Source of the DNA: a virus
Virus record (IMG/VR): IMGVR_UViG_3300020219_000012
Coordinates: 36,343 to 100,342 of that record
Length of the DNA: 64,000 nt
Strand: one strand, 5' to 3'
Positions 5,044-57,674 of the stretch are shown one piece after another (positions within the stretch are counted from its first letter, which is position 1; each line of letters opens with the position of its first letter). The notes under the pieces were generated by a model. That model was not told the origin of the DNA and searched no databases. It saw only the letters and a list, made by a program, of their open reading frames with translations. The position numbers and the translations under genes are program-made.

Positions 5044-5520
5044 ATGCCTACGACGATTGGTACTGAGGAGCAGCGCCGGGCGCAGGAAGCGCGGCGGCTG
5101 CTTCGCCTTTTCTTGAACGACACCCCGGAGCTGAATCGCTTGATTCGGACCCAGGAGTCAGACGACGCCAAGCTCGACCTGGCGTTGCTGCTGGCCGTCG
5201 ATGATTACAACATCACGGCTCCGCTACTGGGCAACGTCCAGGTATGGAACTTCCCGTCGATGTTCATGCTCATCTACGGGGCATCGATTCAGGTCCTGCG
5301 CAGCGCCGGACTCCTGCAGTCGCGCAATGAGTTGGCCTACAGCTCCGGCGGGGTCTCGGTTCGGATCTTCGACAAGACCCAGCTCTACCAGAGCTGGATT
5401 GCCCAGTTCGTCGCCGAGTACGAACTAAAGAAGCGCAACTTCAAGATGGCGCTCAACATCGACGCCGCCCTCGCGGGTGGCGTCTCCTCTGAGTATTCCA
5501 TCCTCAACTACTTCTGGTGA
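5044..5520 (+). CDS. Probable head-tail adaptor/neck protein
   Basis: 158 aa, helical; position between capsid and sheath. Confidence 0.55.
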   Translation: MPTTIGTEEQRRAQEARRLLRLFLNDTPELNRLIRTQESDDAKLDLALLLAVDDYNITAPLLGNVQVWNFPSMFMLIYGASIQVLRSAGLLQSRNELAYSSGGVSVRIFDKTQLYQSWIAQFVAEYELKKRNFKMALNIDAALAGGVSSEYSILNYFW

Positions 5521-5523
5521 ACC

Positions 5524-6396
5524 ATGCTGGCGTTCTCCAGGCTCGATATCATCATCGCCGAGCTCGGTGGTCCGCCATCGAACATCGCCCGCGTGCTTGT
5601 ATGCTGGGAGCTGGTCACCCAGCACAGCGGCCTTCCTGCGACGCAGTTCTTCGTGGAGCGGTCGCTGTCTCCGCAGTTCACGGACGGCGAATACGACGTA
5701 ATCAGTAATGCGATCCCTGGGGCCGCTGGCGATTACGTCTACGAGTACACGGACATCACGCCCAACCTGTTCAGCTTCTGGCGGATGTACTTTTATCGAA
5801 TCCGTGCGGTGACGCCGGACGGGACCGTCTACTCACAGATCCGCAGCTGGGAGACGTCGCCGCGCCCGCACGAGCTCGCCATCATCGAGCGCCATGACTT
5901 CGTGCTTCGGTACCTGCAGGGGCAGCCCAGCTTCGCCTTCGTGGAGCGCACCATCGGGTCCGCCCGCTGCAACTGCTACGACGCCACAGCAGGTCGCAGT
6001 CGGAAGTCGAACTGCACCGACTGCCTGGGGACCGGGCGGCAGCGCCCGTTCTTTGAACCGATTCCGCTCTACGTCGACTACAACCCCGACGAGAAGCTCG
6101 TTCAGATCGCCAGCATGGGCGAGCTCCAGATGAACGAGAAGGACTCGTGGTTCTCGGCTTACCCACGGGTCAAGCCGGGAGACATCATCTACCAGGTACA
6201 GAACGCCATGCTCTGGCGCATCTCCCGGGTCAGCGTCATCCAGCCCATGGGCACGACGATTCAGCACGTCGCCCGCCTGACCGGCCTCGAGCGCAACGAG
6301 GTTGAGTACCAGCGTCTGGTTCAGCGGATTGCCCCGGAGAGCCTCCAGGGAATCGTGCAAGAATGGGAAATGCTCAAGCGGGAGCGGATGTTCTGA
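5524..6396 (+). CDS. Probable head-closure/neck protein with Zn-binding motif
   Basis: CNC..CTDCLGTG and PRVKPGDII motifs; synteny. Confidence 0.55.
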   Translation: MLAFSRLDIIIAELGGPPSNIARVLVCWELVTQHSGLPATQFFVERSLSPQFTDGEYDVISNAIPGAAGDYVYEYTDITPNLFSFWRMYFYRIRAVTPDGTVYSQIRSWETSPRPHELAIIERHDFVLRYLQGQPSFAFVERTIGSARCNCYDATAGRSRKSNCTDCLGTGRQRPFFEPIPLYVDYNPDEKLVQIASMGELQMNEKDSWFSAYPRVKPGDIIYQVQNAMLWRISRVSVIQPMGTTIQHVARLTGLERNEVEYQRLVQRIAPESLQGIVQEWEMLKRERMF

Positions 6397-6641
6397 TGCG
6401 CCCATTTCTAAACGGATTCGCCCGCGAGCTAGTCAAGCTCGCCGCCTTCCCGCAGCAGGAGCAGAGCCCTGGCTCGTTTGATGCCGCAACTGCCACGTCG
6501 ATGGATTCGACCTCCGGGACTGGAGCGAAGGCTGGCGTGAAGGCCGCAGTTCCCACGCAAACCGCCCAGGCCCCCAAGAAGATCTCGCCCACGCCGCTCA
6601 CCACCCCAAACGCCATGGTCGACGTCGCTTCGAAGTCGTAA
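6396..6641 (+). CDS. Small K-x-A family protein
   Basis: MRPFLNGFARELVKLAA; TGATG overlap with the previous stop. Confidence 0.55.
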   Translation: MRPFLNGFARELVKLAAFPQQEQSPGSFDAATATSMDSTSGTGAKAGVKAAVPTQTAQAPKKISPTPLTTPNAMVDVASKS

Positions 6642-7162
6642 TGAACATCTCTTCCTGGATATCCTTTGAGCCGGGCTCCGGCGACGAGAAGTCTGAAGAG
6701 ATCGACTCGCTGGCGAAGTCGCGGCTTGCCGCGCAGATCCAGACCCGCCTCCGCAATCAGGTCGACCCCGGCATCGACCTCCAGTCCGCTCGGCGCGCTC
6801 AATCGATCCAGGCCAGGGAAGCTGACGGGCAGATCGTCATCAGCGAAGACGACCAGGCCAAGCTGTTCTCCGGGGGCCAGGAGCAAGGCGAGGACGACTC
6901 TGAGCCGCCCGCTGGCAACCTGGACGATCTGTTCAAGCCAGGCTCCGGTGTGCCCGAGTCGGTCAGCAATCCCGATGGATCGACTCAGCTTGTTTTCAGA
7001 TCGATCAAGGCCGCCGACGTGTTCGGCGAGCAGACCAAGCTGCGCCGCTCCGAGGCGACCGAGCACGCCATCTCGGATGCGCTTCGCAATGGCGTGGTCG
7101 ACGCCATCGAGAATGCGACCGATGAAGTCGAGCGTATGCGGGGCGGGGGCCGCGGCAGATGA
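6641..7162 (+). CDS. Hypothetical neck/tail-completion protein
   Basis: TAATG coupling; synteny. Confidence 0.5.
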   Translation: MNISSWISFEPGSGDEKSEEIDSLAKSRLAAQIQTRLRNQVDPGIDLQSARRAQSIQAREADGQIVISEDDQAKLFSGGQEQGEDDSEPPAGNLDDLFKPGSGVPESVSNPDGSTQLVFRSIKAADVFGEQTKLRRSEATEHAISDALRNGVVDAIENATDEVERMRGGGRGR

Positions 7163-45865: not shown

Positions 45866-46882
45866 CTACTTGGCTTTCTTCTTGCGGTACTTCAAGATCT
45901 TGCCAACCAGGGCCGACTTGCCACCCGGCAGCTTGGAGGCGCCAACGATCTTGCACGGGCCGGCGGCGTACTTGCGCAGGTCGGCGAGCGATTCGTTCAT
46001 CAGGTCCTTGCCGCTGAGCCTGGCGAACCGACGGGCCTTGTTGTAGGCGGCCTTGCCCTGGTCGCTCACATGAACAGCTTCAGCGCGCACGTCGGCGGGT
46101 TCGTCGTGGGCGCTGTCACCTTCACGCCACTCCTCATCGTCATCTTCGTCGATTTCCTCGCTGTGCACGGTGGACGACAGCAGCCCGCCAGCATGGTGGC
46201 CGATGACCTTGTACTCACAGACCCGCATCTTGCGATAGCTCTCGTCGTTGGGCACGCAGACCACGTGCTCGGGGTCGACCTCGCAGATCACCACGGCCCC
46301 GTCCGAGTGGAAGCTGTCGGCATACGAGAGGTCGCCGACGTGATAGCCGAAGTGACAAGCCGTCTGCGGGTCGTCGGAGACGAGGTTTCGCTCCATCCGG
46401 TTGACCACGCCCGGCGAGTTGTCGACCTTGCCTGTGTAGCAATCCGTGAGGTCCGCCTTGACGCCCTTGTAGGCCAGGAAGGTGCCGTCCTTCTGAAGCG
46501 GAATGCCCGAATGCTGCAGGAAGTTGAAGAGCTGGTTCACCGACCGGTGGCTCGGGTTCTTGGCCAGCCGCTCATAGAAGTTGAACACGGGCTCGGGGCT
46601 CTCGCCCTGGGCTGCCATCTCGCGGATGCGACCCTGGATGGAAATAGGCAGCGGTTCACCGTCATAGAAGATCTTGCCGTCGGCGCTCGCCGCGAACCGA
46701 CCCTTGGCCCACTGTGCCAGCGAGCCTGCCAGGGTCAAGCTGCGGACCACGCCGTCCCAGTCCTCGGACAGCACCGCGCTATGGATGGCGCTGTACTGAA
46801 TGGAGCCCTTGAGAAAGGTGTGGGGGGTGCCGGCGTGGATGACGGTCGCAGACTCATGAGTGATCGTGAAGGCGGGGCGCAT
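45866..46882 (-). CDS. T4 rIIB-like protein
   Basis: LAKNPS, DGTFLAYKGV, CHFGYHVG and KMRVCEYKV; adjacent to rIIA. Confidence 0.85.
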   Translation of the reverse strand: MRPAFTITHESATVIHAGTPHTFLKGSIQYSAIHSAVLSEDWDGVVRSLTLAGSLAQWAKGRFAASADGKIFYDGEPLPISIQGRIREMAAQGESPEPVFNFYERLAKNPSHRSVNQLFNFLQHSGIPLQKDGTFLAYKGVKADLTDCYTGKVDNSPGVVNRMERNLVSDDPQTACHFGYHVGDLSYADSFHSDGAVVICEVDPEHVVCVPNDESYRKMRVCEYKVIGHHAGGLLSSTVHSEEIDEDDDEEWREGDSAHDEPADVRAEAVHVSDQGKAAYNKARRFARLSGKDLMNESLADLRKYAAGPCKIVGASKLPGGKSALVGKILKYRKKKAK

Positions 46883-48986
46883 GGTTCTTGGCTTTCTTGG
46901 CGGCGCGAGCAGCGTCCGCCTGGGTGAGCTTGTGGTTCGAATCGACGAGCTGAACGTAGTCCATCCAGATTCCGGGGTTGCCGGTGCCGGTGGGATTCCA
47001 GAGCGAAGAGATCCCTACGTGCGCAAAGAGTGGGTAGCGATCCAGGATGGCCTTGAGTTCTCGAGCGGCCTCCGAATCCCCTGGGCGGATGTTCAGGCGC
47101 TTCGTCAGGTCGGTCAGGACGGCAGCCTTGTTGGCGCCCAGTCCCTGGACGACCTTCGCGGCGTGGGCGTGGCGGGTATATAGCCTGTTGATCGAATGCT
47201 GGTCGCCCAGGTCATTGACCATCGCAGCCAGGCGCTGACTGCTCGGCGCACCAGGGCGATGGCTATAATGGCCATGGATATTCTCGCGCTCGAGGCGGGC
47301 CCACTGTAGCTCGACGATGAGATCGGGGAGGTCGGGGGTGCTATCCAGGATCTGCTTGGCCAGATCCTTGCGCCAGACCCGGTATTCGGTGCCAACGACC
47401 AGGGCTGGGTTGATCGGTTTTTTGTCGGTGGTCTTGTAGCCATAGACCTTCGGCATCGTGAAATCGAAGGCTCTGCAGAGGGCATCGTCGGCGATGTAGT
47501 CGGGATAGAAGTCCCTGTACTGGTCCGCCTTGAAGTTGTGGGTCACGACGTACACGTCACCCTTGTCGGGCACCCGTGACTCGGTATCCCAGTGGGCCGA
47601 GTAAGGATTCTTGTAGTGAGTTCTGGGGATGAGCTTGAAAGTAGAGACCTTGTGCTTGGGGTTGTTGACCTTCTTGGGCTTCTTGTAGGGCGCGGTATAC
47701 GGGCAGATCGAGAGGAACTCGACCCGAACGCCGACCATGCCCGAGGCCTCGATGGCCGCATCGAGGGCGATCTTGGCCTCGCCGAACGTCTTGCCCGGGG
47801 CGGGCCGAATCACGTAGTCGTTGAACGCCAGGCGATAGCCGACGAGATCCTCGCCGGTGTCATCGATTAGGAGGCGGACGTCCTTACTGACCGATATGCG
47901 GGTCGAGGCCGACCGGTTGTGGACCAGGCTGAAGTCCGCCGCGTCGTAGATGAGCTTGACGTGGGGGTCGGTGATCTCATTCCAATCCTCAGGGAACGGC
48001 AGCTCCAGGGTGTTGAGCACCTGAGCCCGCAGACGCATCTCCCAGGGAGAGATGCCGGCACCGCCGAGTGAACCCAGCGTGTGCTGGACGAACTCGTCGA
48101 CCAGGTCGTTGATCTTTTCGACCAGCGCCGCCTTGGTCCGATCGGTGTACTTGAGCTCTTCGCGGGATGCCGAGACCTGCACCTCGCCGATCCCGAAGAA
48201 GAGCGACCCTGAGATCCTGGGCATGAACTTGCCCAGCTGGTCCCGCGGCAGCTGGTCGATGTTGACCCGGTAGGGCACGCAGCCCATGACTGCGATCCAG
48301 CGGGTAGATCCGCCCTGGTCGGCCGTGCACAGGCTGCCGTGGGTCAGGATCGTGCTGGCCTCGGGAATGGGGGGCAAGATGATGTTGATGGCCGGCCGGG
48401 GGCTGTAGTGCTGAAAGAGCTGTGACGCCTTGGTGTTGAACTCGTGGACGTCGGCGGGGCGCGTGGCGATCTGGATCTCGATGCCGGTCTCGGCGGATGG
48501 CTCTTCGTGGACGAGCTGGATCTCACCCTTGTCGGATGGGTCGAGCACGGCAATATAGATTCGCTTCACCCCGCCATGGTGGCTGATGACCGTGAATGAG
48601 TCCGAGTAGGCAAAGCCGGACTTGGACCCGATGCCCAGCATGCCGACGGCATCGTTGGTGCCACGGCGCGTGGAGGCGCCGTACTGAGTGTAGATCTCGA
48701 ACACCTCGTCGCGGGACAGGCCCTTGCCGTGATCGCGCACCGTGAACAGCGGTTCGTCATAAGTCGGAACATGGATCTCGATCGGCCGATCGGCTATCCC
48801 GGCCTCGCGATGTGAGTCCCAGGCGTTGCTCGAGTACTCGCGCAGAACGGCTAAGATCTTGTCGGAGTAGATGCCCTCACGGAGCAGGCCCATGATGTGG
48901 GGGGTGTCCTTGTGGGAGATACCGAACGAGGCGCTCGCCGTCGAACCACTGCTATGAATGGCTCGCTGGTCGTCGGATGGCTTCAT
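46854..48986 (-). CDS. T4 rIIA-like GHKL ATPase
   Basis: IYSDKILAVLREYSSNAWDSH, DHGKGLS and GMLGIGSKS. Confidence 0.85.
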   Translation of the reverse strand: MKPSDDQRAIHSSGSTASASFGISHKDTPHIMGLLREGIYSDKILAVLREYSSNAWDSHREAGIADRPIEIHVPTYDEPLFTVRDHGKGLSRDEVFEIYTQYGASTRRGTNDAVGMLGIGSKSGFAYSDSFTVISHHGGVKRIYIAVLDPSDKGEIQLVHEEPSAETGIEIQIATRPADVHEFNTKASQLFQHYSPRPAINIILPPIPEASTILTHGSLCTADQGGSTRWIAVMGCVPYRVNIDQLPRDQLGKFMPRISGSLFFGIGEVQVSASREELKYTDRTKAALVEKINDLVDEFVQHTLGSLGGAGISPWEMRLRAQVLNTLELPFPEDWNEITDPHVKLIYDAADFSLVHNRSASTRISVSKDVRLLIDDTGEDLVGYRLAFNDYVIRPAPGKTFGEAKIALDAAIEASGMVGVRVEFLSICPYTAPYKKPKKVNNPKHKVSTFKLIPRTHYKNPYSAHWDTESRVPDKGDVYVVTHNFKADQYRDFYPDYIADDALCRAFDFTMPKVYGYKTTDKKPINPALVVGTEYRVWRKDLAKQILDSTPDLPDLIVELQWARLERENIHGHYSHRPGAPSSQRLAAMVNDLGDQHSINRLYTRHAHAAKVVQGLGANKAAVLTDLTKRLNIRPGDSEAARELKAILDRYPLFAHVGISSLWNPTGTGNPGIWMDYVQLVDSNHKLTQADAARAAKKAKNHAPRLHDHS

Positions 48987-55296: not shown

Positions 55297-55325
55297 GTGG
55301 ATTCCTTTTCAGAATCCTTATGCCT

Positions 55326-55346
55326 AAGAAAAGCGGGGCAGCCCGC
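55326..55346 (-). terminator. Terminator closing the GGY-NN array
   Basis: GCGGG-CTGC-CCCGC-TTTTCTT. Confidence 0.65.
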
Positions 55347-55528
55347 CAGTCCTCGCCGGCCACGCCCAACCTCGCCAGCCCTGCCTTGCCGCGCCCGACC
55401 GAACCTAACCCGACCTAACCCCGCCAGCCTGACCGTGCCATGCCATTCCCAGCGCAGCCTGACCGCGCCGAACCTAACCCTGCCAGCCTATCCTCATCAT
55501 GCCTCACACCGCCGAGCCTCGCCTTGCC
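55343..55528 (-). ncRNA. GGY-NN pentamer repeat array (putative guide RNA precursor)
   Basis: 34 pentamers (28 begin GGC/GGT) with variable dinucleotides, split by 4-nt GGCT/GGCC steps; starts 10 nt after a stop codon and ends at a terminator. Confidence 0.8.
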
Positions 55529-55537
55529 ATCTGAAAA

Positions 55538-56011
55538 CTACGCGGCTTGCTGTGCTTCTGCGATGAACTGCGTGACGTTGGCCAAGAGATTGTCGAGCTC
55601 TCCCTCGAGCCCGAGCACCTGAGCGATGGCCCGGCTCCGCGTCACGATGCCCTCGATTCGAGTGAATTCGCGTTGCAGGGTTTCGAGCGCACGTTGCCGA
55701 TCGTTCACCAGGCTTACTGTCTGCACGTACCCCGCTTCACGTTGATCCGACGGATCATGCACATAGGCCACCACCGAAACGGTCCTACGGTCCACGGTGG
55801 CGTTGATCTTCACGGAGCGAATGAGGGTTCGCGCCTGGTCGAGTCGCCTCTCGTGCGCCGCCCGGGTGTCATCCCAGGTGAACGCATCATGCAGCGGGCT
55901 AGTGACCGGACGAGCATCCTCGATGACCAACTCAGGAACGAGTCGTCCTCCCCCCAGCTGGGTCAACTCCGCTAGACGTTTGGCAATCGCTTCCCTTTGG
56001 GCGAGCGTCAT
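55538..56011 (-). CDS. Conserved partner of the RAMP-like gene
   Basis: GRLVPELVIEDARPVTSPLHDAFTWDD..RLDQARTLIRSV; 3 nt after the RAMP-like stop. Confidence 0.75.
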   Translation of the reverse strand: MTLAQREAIAKRLAELTQLGGGRLVPELVIEDARPVTSPLHDAFTWDDTRAAHERRLDQARTLIRSVKINATVDRRTVSVVAYVHDPSDQREAGYVQTVSLVNDRQRALETLQREFTRIEGIVTRSRAIAQVLGLEGELDNLLANVTQFIAEAQQAA

Positions 56012-56014
56012 GGA

Positions 56015-56845
56015 TTAGGCCTCCACTCCGTTGCTGGTGATTTCCTGCACCTTGGTCTTGGCCCGACCGTTGGCCGTGGCCGGTGCAAACGACCGGTGCT
56101 TACCGACTGCGTCGAGGTACCAGGTGTAGAGCTCCTCGGTCTCTTCGTTGGAGAAGTTCGGCTCCTTCATGCCAGCGAGCTGCACATCGCGCCCACCCTC
56201 CGCCACGATGCGCTGATAGTCGGGGTCATCTGAGCCGGCGATATTGAACAGCCCGTAGTTGCCGGCGCCCTTCTCGTTGCGATAGTCGCCGATGCCGATG
56301 TACATGCCAGCTGCCGCCAGGAGGTTGGCCACCGACTGCAGCTGGAGCTGCGGCATCACGTACGACACTGTGATCGAGCACGCCCACTCCTGCATGTAGC
56401 AGCGGGTCCGCACATCCGGCGCCCGGTTCATGCCGGCCTGCCGGACGATCCGCATATCGAGCTGGGGTATGCCGAAGATGTCGATGCGATCACCGACCAC
56501 CCACAGCATGCGACCGACCTCGGCCTTGCTGACGCCCGGCAGGTCGAGCGCCGCTGCCCGCATCGCTCCGCGGAACGCGGATGAGAGGTGCTGCACGAAC
56601 GTCGGCCCCTCCTTGTTGTTGAAGTAGATGGAGCTCTGGTACTCCTCGAGCGGGCGGTGCTTGAGCGAGGACTTCTTGTCGGCCTCGGTCTTGCGCCCCA
56701 TCGGCAGGAGCAACTCCTGCTTGGTCTTGTTCGACAGGCAGTTGTGCAGCATGGGCGTCGTGCCCACGAGATGGAACGTAGCCTTCCCGCGCTCGACGTT
56801 GATGATCTGAACTTCGCCCGACTTTTCGTTCGCCTTGGTCGCCAT
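56015..56845 (-). CDS. Solo RAMP (Cas7/Csm3-like) RNA-binding protein
   Basis: GGAGA RBS; LVGTTPMLH, SSAFRGAMRAAA and Gly-rich loop GIGDYRNEKGAGNYGLF. Confidence 0.75.
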   Translation of the reverse strand: MATKANEKSGEVQIINVERGKATFHLVGTTPMLHNCLSNKTKQELLLPMGRKTEADKKSSLKHRPLEEYQSSIYFNNKEGPTFVQHLSSAFRGAMRAAALDLPGVSKAEVGRMLWVVGDRIDIFGIPQLDMRIVRQAGMNRAPDVRTRCYMQEWACSITVSYVMPQLQLQSVANLLAAAGMYIGIGDYRNEKGAGNYGLFNIAGSDDPDYQRIVAEGGRDVQLAGMKEPNFSNEETEELYTWYLDAVGKHRSFAPATANGRAKTKVQEITSNGVEA

Positions 56846-56925
56846 TTTGTTTCTCCAGTGAATGTGTGGGAGCGTTATTGCTCTATTCCACTTATGCCTG
56901 GAGCGATTGAGTGAAGTGCCAGTGA

Positions 56926-56963
56926 CTAAAAAAGAAAAGTCACCGAGGTTGCCCTCGGTGACT
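56926..56963 (-). terminator. Strong intrinsic terminator
   Basis: AGTCACCGAGG-GCAA-CCTCGGTGACT followed by TTTCTTTTTT. Confidence 0.85.
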
Positions 56964-57035: not shown

Positions 57036-57674
57036 TCAGTCGAATCCACCCAGCATCTCGCTCACTGATCGGAACTTGCGCCCCGCGATGACGATGTGGT
57101 CAACCATGGGAATCCCGACCAGCTCGCCCACCGCCTGCACGCGCCGGGTCAAGGCCATGTCCTCTTGGCTGGGCGTGGGGTCCCCGGTCGGGTGGTTGTG
57201 GGCGATGATGCAGCCCGCGGCCGAGATGCGAATGAGGGGCCGGAAGATTTCCCGGGGATGAGCCTCGACGCCGTTCAGGGTCCCCCGGGCCACCTCAATC
57301 TCGGCAATGACCTGGTTTCGGGCGTTGAGCGCCAGCACCACGAACACCTCCTGTTTGAGCCCGGCGAAGAACCCCTGGAGCCGGTCGAACACCGACTGCG
57401 GGGTGGATACTACCCCTAGTGTCCGGCAGGTCATTGCACGCCGACCCAGCTCGAAGATGGCCGCCGTCTTGCGGGCGCCGACCCCGCCCACGGCCTGCTT
57501 GAGCTCGAGGTGCGGGGCCCGGCCGATGGCCTCGATGTCACCGACCCCTTCCAGGAGCCGGTCGCTGGCGCGCGTCCCCAGGGCCAACGCCAGGAGGTCC
57601 TTGTCTGACAATTTATCAATCACCCGCGGGCTCCTTCTTTGTGGGGCTCGTCTGGTCTGGATCTGTTTGGTCAC
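57036..57674 (-). CDS. radC: RadC-like JAB-domain protein
   Basis: LSDKDLLALAL, QEVF, HPREIF, AHNHPTGDPTPSQED and DHIVI. Confidence 0.9.
   Translation of the reverse strand: MTKQIQTRRAPQRRSPRVIDKLSDKDLLALALGTRASDRLLEGVGDIEAIGRAPHLELKQAVGGVGARKTAAIFELGRRAMTCRTLGVVSTPQSVFDRLQGFFAGLKQEVFVVLALNARNQVIAEIEVARGTLNGVEAHPREIFRPLIRISAAGCIIAHNHPTGDPTPSQEDMALTRRVQAVGELVGIPMVDHIVIAGRKFRSVSEMLGGFD

What the first reader, a model, noticed from the sequence alone, without database searches (positions are those of the whole stretch)
55326..56898. Candidate non-CRISPR RNA-guided system: solo RAMP/Cas7-like gene, partner gene and GGY-NN repeat RNA
Seen: a self-contained - strand unit, insulated by an upstream terminator. 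In order it has a GGCATAAG motif (56891-98), a 276-aa ORF, a 157-aa ORF, a 186-nt non-coding array of GG(C/T)+NN pentamers, and a terminator. Known: the 276-aa protein has three RAMP hallmarks of Cas7/Csm3-type backbones (first strand LVGTTPMLH, helix SSAFRGAMRAA resembling PGSSLKGALR, and the C-terminal Gly loop GIG..GAGNYG). These proteins polymerise along RNA with a fixed nucleotide step. No cas1, cas2, cas3, cas6 or CRISPR array is in the window. Inference: each subunit grips one invariant GGY and displays the variable NN, so the dinucleotides would form a discontinuous guide against DNA or RNA (rival phage or host genes), probably silencing rather than cutting. From memory, this matches the recently reported phage 'VIPR' repeat-RNA systems; I cannot verify that here.
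Basis: partly seen in the sequence, partly recalled or inferred. Interest (0 to 1): 0.96.

Follow-up and report, generated by a model that had tools for sequence, protein, structure and literature searches.

The report
Phage VIPR guide-RNA silencing locus
This uncultured 100-kb phage carries a complete VIPR system, a CRISPR-related RNA-guided DNA silencer first described in 2026 preprints. It is a new example of a known kind, and one of its three guides spells a conserved motif of integrase genes of rival integrating elements.

Summary

- **Transcription unit:** on the - strand, between two intrinsic terminators, lie a phage-specific promoter-like word (GGCATAAG), a 276-aa gene, a 157-aa gene and a 185-nt non-coding GGY-NN pentamer array.
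- **Protein:** the 276-aa protein models as a single-RRM RAMP. Its best fold matches are Csm3, Cmr4 and Cas7-11. Its family profile hits the solved SUSP1 Vipr protein (PDB 36pp) and conserves the GGY-binding Arg, Asp and Arg.
- **Array:** it is unique in the 100-kb genome, far beyond chance, and is a 'staggered' vrRNA array. One-base-short GGCTGGC steps cut it into guides of 9, 12 and 10 units.
- **Relatives:** 107 of 134 related loci carry same-strand arrays downstream of the gene. GGY is conserved and NN carries no information.
- **Target lead:** read with the published skip-one-base rule, nine units of guide B match 25 viral contigs, against 0-3 for five control patterns. All 25 sites lie on the MMQ(Q/H)WADYL codons of P4-type tyrosine integrases, with the skipped base at wobble.
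- **Gaps:** guides A and C have no target. Expression could not be tested.

This is a new member of a known kind. The scan has noted VIPR loci in many other genomes.

The parts
56938..56963 (-). Intrinsic terminator that closes the upstream radC unit and insulates the VIPR unit. It has an 11-bp stem, a GCAA loop and a T-run.
56891..56898 (-). GGCATAAG, a promoter-like word of this phage, 46 nt upstream of the vipr start codon.
   Evidence: 10 copies on the - strand, 0 on the + strand, about 1.2 expected per strand. Most lie in front of genes and some directly after terminators. An earlier scan note reads it as a phage-specific promoter class.
56015..56845 (-). vipr: a 276-aa single-RRM RAMP protein. 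It has a helical insertion (residues 39-71), a long beta-hairpin thumb (124-164), a G-loop GIGDYRNEKGAGNYG (184-198) and a clade-specific C-terminal helical extension (208-249).
   Evidence: AF2 model with pLDDT 87.8. Foldseek top hits are Csm3, Cmr4, type VII Cas7 and Cas7-11, E 1.6e-5. VIA Z up to 9.9. The family profile hits PDB 36pp 'SUSP1 Vipr protein' at E 3.9e-5. hhalign gives 95% probability.
55538..56011 (-). vap-like accessory gene of 157 aa, starting 4 nt after the vipr stop codon. It has an N-terminal helix/beta domain that is weakly winged-helix-like, and a C-terminal helical hairpin.
   Evidence: tblastn finds a homologue next to vipr in all 80 IMG/VR loci, downstream in most. 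It matches phrog_15946. It has no Pfam, NCBIfam or PADLOC family. It is unrelated to SUSP1 vap1. Fold.
55485..55528 (-). vrRNA guide A: 9 units, three with a degenerate scaffold (TGT, GAT, GGA). NN = AA GA TC GG GA AT GA TA, then the junction unit GGCT(G).
   Evidence: No target found.
55426..55484 (-). vrRNA guide B: 12 units. NN = AG TA TC GC CA TG TG AT AT AC CA, then the junction unit GGCT(G). Units 1-9 read the antisense of the codons MMQ(Q/H)WADYL of P4-type integrases.
55377..55425 (-). vrRNA guide C: 10 units. NN = GG TA CG TA TC CG GC AA AG, then the junction unit GGCT(G).
   Evidence: Only chance-level matches.
55344..55376 (-). Short terminal pentamer segments of 4 and 3 units, delimited by GGCCGGC and GGCGGGC steps. 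They run into the terminator. Their role is unknown.
55326..55347 (-). Intrinsic terminator (GGCGGG-CTGC-CCCGCT stem-loop plus T-run) that ends the unit. The next GGCATAAG (55324-55317) starts the following gene.

Best explanation
This is a VIPR (Viral Interference Programmable Repeat) system of an uncultured 100-kb phage from microbial mats.

Shown here:
- One insulated transcription unit encodes a Vipr-family RAMP, an accessory protein and a staggered array of GGY-NN pentamers.
- The array is cut into three full guides of 9, 12 and 10 units by one-base-short GGCTGGC steps.

Inferred from the published SUSP1 work:
- The array is transcribed from the phage's own GGCATAAG promoter.
- Vipr protomers bind one pentamer each. 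Each protomer buries GGY (here through R148, D187, Y188 and R189) and displays NN.
- The filament reads double-stranded DNA as NN-x-NN-x and blocks transcription without cutting.

Inferred from matches found here:
- Guide B is aimed at the conserved C-terminal MMQ(Q/H)WADYL codons of P4-type tyrosine integrase genes, with the skipped base at the wobble position.
- The phage would thereby immobilise integrating competitors (satellites, islands or prophages) in its host, whichever synonymous codons they use.

My odds: VIPR membership about 0.93. Integrase targeting by guide B about 0.65.
For: - Array statistics and uniqueness in the genome.
- RAMP fold.
- Link to the solved SUSP1 Vipr: E 3.9e-5 and hhalign 95%, E 3.7e-8. 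The alignment puts R148 on R138, D187 on D177, Y188 on W178 and R189 on R179. The preprint names those SUSP1 residues as G1, G2 and Y3 contacts.
- Family size: 4134 cluster representatives at E <= 1e-3.
- Conserved synteny: 107 of 134 loci have a same-strand array within 2.5 kb downstream of vipr, and only 1 has one on the opposite strand. A vap homologue lies next to vipr in all 80 IMG/VR loci, downstream in most.
- Unit logo with the register fixed only by the junctions, over 198 segments: G 0.93, G 0.88, Y 0.94, N4 0.05 bit, N5 0.01 bit. Segments have 8-17 units, most often 10. The preprint gives 9-16 units and describes 'staggered arrays' with 1-nt overlap.
- No self-target in the phage genome, as the preprint reports for its systems.
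- Guide B units 1-9 give 25 exact IMG/VR matches. Five other 18-position patterns gave 2, 0, 3, 1 and 3, including a composition-matched reversal of guide B.
- All 25 sites lie in 240-472-aa ORFs (some cut at a contig end). The five tested carry Arm-DNA-bind_3 + Phage_int_M + Phage_integrase. All sites are at MMQ(Q/H)WADYL, in codon phase 0.
- A guide from an unrelated family member (L014) reads a second conserved motif of the same integrases, AAEW(R)IPAERMKM. It scores 16 of 16 over 8 units in phase 0. Shuffled guides reach at most 14.
- SUSP1 VIPR is published to silence a satellite's excision recombinase at codon positions 1-2.
Against: - Transcription of the array, processing at the junctions and binding to the protein are untested. 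No RNA run holds this DNA.
- Units 10-12 of guide B do not match any of the 25 integrases; the best score is 21 of 24. No full-length target was found in IMG/VR or in 401 Pseudomonadota genomes.
- The 25 hits are homologous, so they are effectively one event.
- Guides A and C have no target above chance.
- The host is unknown.
- The accessory protein is unrelated to the only characterised one, vap1. Its fold match to winged helices is weak.
- SUSP1 residues H17 and K33 could not be aligned.
Confidence: 0.85

Rival explanations
1. The system is a VIPR relative that acts on RNA rather than DNA. The guides would be antisense to integrase mRNA and would block or destroy the transcript, as type III Cas7 backbones do.
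For: Guide B, and the independent L014 guide, are both antisense to the integrase coding strand. The closest folds are RNA-targeting Csm3, Cmr4 and Cas7-11.
Against: Published VIPR complexes bind double-stranded DNA, form an R-loop triplex and silence from either strand. Two antisense guides out of two is expected by chance one time in four. No catalytic-loop motif was looked for or seen.
Confidence: 0.07
2. The guides regulate the phage's own or the host's genes (timing or host takeover), not competitors. The integrase match would then be coincidental.
For: Guides A and C have no identified target. The host genome is unknown, so host targets cannot be excluded. Published satellites redirect VIPR to host decoy sites.
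Against: No site in the phage genome scores above shuffled guides. A 9-unit exact match to a conserved protein motif in the wobble register, present in 25 contigs against 0-3 for controls, is hard to get by chance.
Confidence: 0.05
3. The locus is a decayed or orphan RAMP gene beside a G-rich simple repeat (for example a G-quadruplex-forming or recombination-prone tract), with no guide function.
For: GGNNN repeats can in principle form two-tetrad quadruplexes. Three scaffolds in guide A and two in guide B are degenerate.
Against: The gene-array pairing, the strand and the order are conserved in over 100 loci of very different sequence. GGY is kept, NN is free, and segment lengths are quantised. 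The protein is intact, models confidently and keeps its RNA-binding residues.
Confidence: 0.02

Closest known systems
VIPR systems with 'staggered' vrRNA arrays (bioRxiv 10.64898/2026.04.26.720920, fig. S18 legend)
   Same: Solo Vipr RAMP plus accessory gene plus GGY-NN array, carried on a virus. Guides abut with a 1-nt overlap: here the last N of GGCTG is the first G of the next guide. There are no per-guide tails.
   Different: The preprint's type (I-VII) for this clade could not be read, because figures and data files are not held. Here the junction word is GGCTGGC, whereas most relatives use GGCAGGC.
Type II VIPR of Escherichia phage SUSP1 (vipr AVU07_agp039, vap1 AVU07_agp038; PDB 36pp)
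   Same: Gene order is vipr, then accessory gene, then array, all on one strand. The thumb and G-loop region is homologous and keeps the conserved Arg, Asp and Arg. Both have a guide aimed at a competitor's recombinase at codon positions 1-2.
   Different: This Vipr has 276 aa against 195, with an extra C-terminal helical region. The accessory protein is unrelated to vap1. SUSP1 guides are separate RNAs of about 100 nt, each with its own 3' tail and pseudoknot, and one lies upstream. Here there are no tails and one continuous array. The G-loop Trp is a Tyr here.
Class 1 CRISPR backbone RAMPs (Csm3, Cmr4, Cas7, Cas7-11)
   Same: RRM core, G-loop and thumb. VIA Z is 8-9.9 over about 130-160 residues. 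Both polymerise along a guide with periodic base flipping, as the literature describes.
   Different: There are no CRISPR repeats or spacers, no Cas1, Cas2, Cas6 or Cas10, and no cas-model hit. The step is 5 nt with three bases buried. The target is read as NN-x.
Unannotated loci of cultured Gordonia phages ODay and Pipp (MW534375, MN234179)
   Same: Distant homologues of both proteins (26-35% identity). Same-strand GGY-NN arrays with GGCAGGC and GGCTGGC junctions.
   Different: In ODay and Pipp the array lies between vipr and the accessory gene. In Pipp it is annotated as protein-coding gene 43. These are temperate-type phages of about 50-59 kb.

Membership tests
VIPR system | Vipr protein is a minimal RAMP: one RRM core, a glycine-rich loop and a thumb | tested here: met
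   AF2 model with pLDDT 87.8 and order beta1-alpha1-beta-hairpin-alpha2-G-loop-beta4. Foldseek gives 63 PDB hits at E <= 1e-3, with Csm3, Cmr4, Cas7 and Cas7-11 on top. VIA Z is 9.9 (rmsd 3.5 over 150 residues), 9.7 and 8.8.
VIPR system | Sequence homology to an experimentally validated Vipr | tested here: met
   The family profile hits PDB 36pp_D 'SUSP1 Vipr protein' at E 3.9e-5. hhalign against SUSP1 agp039 gives 95% probability and E 3.7e-8 over 52 columns. Only the thumb-to-G-loop third aligns.
VIPR system | GGY-recognition residues of SUSP1 Vipr (R138, D177, W178, R179; also H17 and K33) | tested here: inconclusive
   R148, D187 and R189 align to R138, D177 and R179 and are invariant or nearly invariant in 46 homologues. 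W178 is Y188 here; the position varies in the family and is mostly aromatic. H17 and K33 lie outside the alignable part.
VIPR system | vrRNA of about 9-16 tandem GGY-NN (YNNGG) units with conserved GGY and hypervariable NN | tested here: met
   The guides have 9, 12 and 10 units. Family logo: G 0.93, G 0.88, Y 0.94, NN 0.05 and 0.01 bit. Segments have 8-17 units. Chance control.
VIPR system | Minimal locus (vipr plus one accessory gene) without cas genes or a CRISPR array, mostly on viruses | tested here: met
   The unit has two genes between terminators. No CRISPR array. No cas, PADLOC, NCBIfam or Pfam hit. The genome is a 100-kb virus record with primase-helicase and rIIA/rIIB-like genes.
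VIPR system | vrRNAs are expressed and co-purify with Vipr | not testable with these tools
   No RNA run holds this DNA. The runs laid on the locus are DNA contigs only.
VIPR system | Natural targets obey the 1-nt-skip rule, with the skipped base at codon wobble, on competing mobile elements | tested here: inconclusive
   Guide B units 1-9 match exactly, in phase 0, on P4-type integrases in 25 contigs, against 0-3 for controls. Units 10-12 do not match. Guides A and C have no target.
Type II VIPR (SUSP1 / P. fulva clade) | vap1 accessory gene | tested here: not met
   hhalign of the 48-member accessory-protein profile against SUSP1 agp038 gives probability 0.1%.
Type II VIPR (SUSP1 / P. fulva clade) | Separate vrRNAs, each capped by an invariant structured 3' tail (pseudoknot) | tested here: not met
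   The guides abut at GGCTGGC with no tail between them. The array folds no better than shuffles. SUSP1 arrays, read for comparison, show tails.
CRISPR-Cas class 1 (type III/IV-like) effector locus | CRISPR repeat-spacer array and further cas genes (Cas5, Cas6, Cas10, Cas1-Cas2) | tested here: not met
   No repeat-spacer array in the window. No cas-model hit for the proteins of the unit or its two downstream neighbours.

The most novel reading that the evidence does not exclude
In this Vipr clade the guides would be written against protein motifs rather than particular genomes. A single guide that reads only codon positions 1-2 of the MMQQWADYL motif would silence whole families of P4-type integrases. 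That would give a lytic phage broad, escape-proof immunity against any satellite or island that uses such an integrase. Guide boundaries would be encoded simply by a one-base-short pentamer (GGC-W-GGC) that breaks the protein filament, with no tail, ribozyme or dedicated nuclease.
Probability: 0.3. Interest if true: 0.6.

Novelty: new member of a known kind. Interest (0 to 1): 0.35.

Why it matters
The locus adds a well-delimited VIPR example outside the characterised E. coli and Pseudomonas systems.

- **Different accessory protein:** it is unrelated to vap1, so the role of accessory proteins can be compared across families.
- **Tail-less staggered array:** segment lengths are quantised at 5k-1 nt across about 200 segments in relatives. 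This gives a concrete hypothesis for how guides are measured.
- **Integrase-reading guide:** guide B spells a conserved integrase motif. This extends the published 'silence the satellite's recombinase' logic to an unrelated phage and suggests it is a general strategy.
- **Cultured test beds:** Gordonia phages ODay and Pipp carry the same gene pair and array type, so these ideas can be tested at the bench.

It does not change what is known about the kind itself.

Tried and rejected
Related loci were fetched with the search for related loci instead.
- **blastn against named phages:** no match for the locus.
- **RNA evidence:** no RNA holder is listed for this DNA.
- **Strain variation in the array:** laying four further microbial-mat DNA runs showed only identical low-depth fragments, so there was none to compare.
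- **Full-length guide B:** 0 hits in IMG/VR. Units 4-12 also gave 0.
- **Guide C:** units 1-9 gave 2 hits that are homologous, from 45%-GC contigs, and do not extend. Units 2-10 gave 3 hits in phase 2. I treat both as chance.
- **Guide A:** 3 hits in 38-43%-GC contigs, treated as chance.
- **Guides A, C and the short terminal segments** against the 25 integrase-bearing loci: nothing above shuffles.
- **Self-targets in the phage genome:** none above shuffled guides.
- **Host search:** A scan of 401 Pseudomonadota genomes with up to 3 mismatches gave one match, and the reversed-pattern control also gave one. The host remains unknown.
- **The same guide in relatives:** not found in the other 141 VIPR loci.
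- **Accessory protein:** no Pfam, NCBIfam, PADLOC or PDB sequence match. Foldseek E > 0.3. VIA rows are dominated by the C-terminal helical hairpin. The N-terminal domain gives only Z 5.7-7.1 to winged-helix-type domains. The protein atlas shows only unnamed viral clusters.
- **VIPR type (I-VII):** could not be assigned, because the preprint's figures and data files are not held.
- **Rfam:** nothing in the array. There is only a sub-threshold tRNA-like match upstream.
Full report
**1. What is in the sequence**

The region reads on the - strand. In order it contains:
- The stop codon of a RadC/JAB gene at 57036 (Pfam RadC, E 1.8e-37).
- A strong intrinsic terminator at 56963-56938.
- The word GGCATAAG at 56898-56891.
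- A 276-aa ORF at 56845-56015, preceded by GGAGA.
- A 157-aa ORF at 56011-55538, starting 4 nt after the first one's stop codon.
- A non-coding tract of GGY-NN pentamers at 55528-55344.
- A second terminator at 55347-55332.
- A second GGCATAAG at 55324, in front of the next gene.

The window is the right 64 kb of a single 100,342-bp virus record with 62.9% GC. The record has a cluster of 11 tRNA genes, a primase-helicase and rIIA/rIIB-like genes. It resembles named phages only remotely. The DNA occurs in several microbial-mat metagenomes.

**2. Is the array more than chance?**

I counted in-phase GGY in windows of ten pentamers over the whole genome. Only this place reaches 6 or more, and it reaches 10 of 10. 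Twenty first-order Markov genomes reach 5 or 6 at most.

The tract has stop codons in all three frames of its strand. It folds no better than shuffles, z = -0.77. That fits an RNA held single-stranded by protein.

GGCATAAG occurs ten times on the - strand and never on the + strand, against about 1.2 expected. Most copies lie in front of genes and some directly after terminators. I confirmed only the counts and positions.

**3. The 276-aa protein**

It has no Pfam, NCBIfam or PADLOC family. It matches one PHROG of unknown function.

It has many relatives: 89 in the word-indexed search, and 4134 cluster representatives at E <= 1e-3 with a profile.

An AlphaFold model built from 46 homologues is confident (pLDDT 87.8, pTM 0.80). 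Its elements are:
- Strand 1 at residues 18-28.
- A helical insertion at 39-71.
- Helix 1 at 88-99.
- A long beta hairpin at 124-164.
- Helix 2 at 169-183.
- The glycine-rich loop GIGDYRNEKGAGNYG at 184-198.
- A last strand, then extra helices at 208-249.

Foldseek against the PDB returns almost only CRISPR RAMPs: Csm3, Cmr4, type VII Cas7 and Cas7-11, from E 1.6e-5. The Foldseek-independent aligner gives Z 9.9, 9.7 and 8.8 for Cmr, Csm and Csm3 chains, followed by Cas7, Cas5 and Cas6 of other types.

The family profile hits one solved chain by sequence, 36pp 'SUSP1 Vipr protein', at E 3.9e-5.

I fetched phage SUSP1 and identified its locus from the gaps in annotation and the array scan. Profile comparison with its 195-aa protein gives 95% probability. 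The alignment places R148, D187, Y188 and R189 on R138, D177, W178 and R179. The structural preprint describes those residues as holding G1, G2 and Y3 of each repeat. R148 and R189 are invariant and D187 nearly invariant in the 46 homologues.

**4. The literature**

VIPR is described in three 2026 preprints. A VIPR system consists of a Vipr RAMP, an accessory gene (vap) and vrRNAs of 9-16 YNNGG repeats. The NN dinucleotides read double-stranded DNA with one skipped base per unit, usually the codon wobble base. Binding silences transcription. Most systems are viral. Seven types are defined. Some arrays are 'staggered', with guides overlapping by 1 nt.

SUSP1 uses VIPR to silence the excision recombinase of a satellite.

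**5. Related loci**

I fetched 134 loci from viral and genome collections and 7 from metagenomes.
- A same-strand array lies within 2.5 kb downstream of the gene in 107 of 134 loci, and upstream in 16. Only one locus has an array on the opposite strand.
- tblastn finds a homologue of the 157-aa protein next to vipr in all 80 IMG/VR loci, downstream in most.
- Cultured Gordonia phages ODay and Pipp carry distant versions of both genes and the same kind of array. In Pipp the array is annotated as a protein gene.

**6. Anatomy of the array**

In the window the phase of GGY drops by one base at three GGCTGGC steps. This gives segments of 44, 59 and 49 nt, that is 9, 12 and 10 units. Two short segments follow and run into the terminator.

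Across the family such 4-nt steps are common: 348 in total, mostly GGCAGGC. The distance between successive steps is quantised at 44, 49, 54, 59 and 64 nt.

I fixed the register only by the flanking steps and left out the flanking units. The interior units of 198 distinct segments then read G 0.93, G 0.88, Y 0.94, and essentially random at N4 and N5 (0.05 and 0.01 bit). Segments have 8-17 units, most often 10.

This matches the preprint's description of staggered arrays. The last N of one guide is the first G of the next. How the guides are separated is not known. That the short unit breaks the protein filament is my inference.

**7. Targets**

Using the published rule, none of the three guides matches the phage's own genome better than shuffled guides.

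In the viral collection:
- The full 22-position pattern of guide B finds nothing.
- Units 1-9 of guide B find 25 contigs.
- Five other patterns with 18 informative positions find 2, 0, 3, 1 and 3. One of them is guide B's dinucleotides in reversed order.

All 25 sites are the antisense of ATG ATG CAn CAn TGG GCn GAn TAn CT. These are the codons of MMQ(Q/H)WADYL, read in phase 0, so the skipped base is the wobble base. The motif lies 15-20 residues after the catalytic-tyrosine motif, near the C-terminus of proteins of about 400-470 aa. The five I tested carry the Arm-DNA-bind_3, Phage_int_M and Phage_integrase domains, so they are P4-type tyrosine integrases.

The 25 hits are homologous and count as one event. 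Even so, a random 18-position pattern landing on a widely conserved motif in the correct codon register is very unlikely. That statement is my reasoning, not a computed p-value.

There is independent support. Among 162 other guides parsed from related loci, one (from L014) reads a second conserved motif of the same integrases, AAEW(R)IPAERMKM. It scores 16 of 16 over eight units, also antisense and in phase 0. None of 150 shuffled guides exceeds 14.

Against the reading:
- Units 10-12 of guide B do not match any of these integrases; the best score is 21 of 24.
- No better match was found in 401 Pseudomonadota genomes.
- Guides A and C have only chance-level matches.

The published SUSP1 guide works with a six-unit footprint, so nine units may be enough. 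This is not shown for this system.

**8. The accessory protein**

It belongs to an unnamed, almost purely viral family. It is not related to SUSP1 vap1.

Its model (pLDDT 87.7) has an N-terminal helix/beta domain with weak resemblance to winged-helix domains: Z 5.7-7.1, and Foldseek rows of PadR, ArsR and MarR type at E > 0.3. It also has a C-terminal helical hairpin.

A DNA-binding helper, as the preprint predicts for several vap families, is plausible but unproven.

tblastn finds homologues of this protein in 27 Mycobacterium phage records, none of which appears among the vipr matches at that sensitivity.

**9. Verdict**

The locus is a new member of a published kind.

It differs from the characterised type II system in four ways:
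- A longer Vipr.
- An unrelated accessory gene.
- A tail-less staggered array.
- Probable expression from the phage's own promoter class.

Other follow-ups in this scan have reported VIPR loci in many other genomes, several with integrase-reading guides. I count these as agreement, not as evidence.

The most useful new points are the quantised junction-delimited guide lengths, the integrase motif read by guide B, and the cultured Gordonia phages as test beds.

Noticed in passing
window 57026-56968 (- strand): A tRNA-like element lies directly after the radC stop codon and before the terminator. It has a T-arm-like GGGTTCGAGTCCCAG and an acceptor-like end. Rfam's tRNA-like mascRNA model matches below threshold (25.3 bits, E 0.026). 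ARAGORN calls no tRNA there. The stretch folds better than all 200 shuffles (z = -3.8). It may be a pseudo-tRNA, an attachment-site remnant or a 3' processing signal.
   Followed up: partly
whole genome; window copies at 56898, 55324, 28058, 25572, 20574, 17840, 17689: GGCATAAG occurs 10 times on the - strand and 0 times on the + strand (about 1.2 expected per strand). Six copies are preceded by CT. Most lie in front of genes and some directly after terminators. It looks like a phage-specific promoter word.
   Followed up: partly
L179:3075-3320 (Gordonia phage Pipp, MN234179) and L178:3112-3294 (Gordonia phage ODay, MW534375): Both cultured phages carry GGY-NN arrays between a vipr homologue and a homologue of the 157-aa gene. 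In Pipp the array is annotated as protein-coding gene 43 (hypothetical protein), which is probably a mis-annotation.
   Followed up: partly
L014, array at 5268-5721: A guide of an unrelated VIPR family member reads the conserved AAEW(R)IPAERMKM motif of the same P4-type integrase family. It scores 16 of 16 over 8 units, in wobble-skipping phase and antisense.
   Followed up: partly
27 Mycobacterium phage records (e.g. Gorge, Saal, Florinda, Quico): The first two thirds of the 157-aa accessory protein have tblastn homologues (about 38% identity) in 27 Mycobacterium phage records. None of these appears among the tblastn matches of vipr. The accessory domain may therefore also work outside VIPR.
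   Followed up: no
L122:3745-3888 (- strand) and 5211-5354 (+ strand): This is the only related locus with a GGY-NN array on the strand opposite to vipr, in addition to a same-strand array.
   Followed up: no
L135 (contig Ga0265316_10000001, 461,400 bp), array about 6310-6646: The closest relatives of this Vipr (68-69% identity) include one on a 461-kb contig with a staggered array of about 340 nt. Scan notes describe a 463-kb peat phage with VIPR, which may be the same.
   Followed up: no
window 46854-48986 and 45866-46882 (- strand): Adjacent genes match the rIIA and rIIB lysis-inhibition families (PHROG E 2.6e-86 and 1.5e-56). This is unusual company in a 63%-GC phage that is only remotely like named phages.
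   Followed up: no
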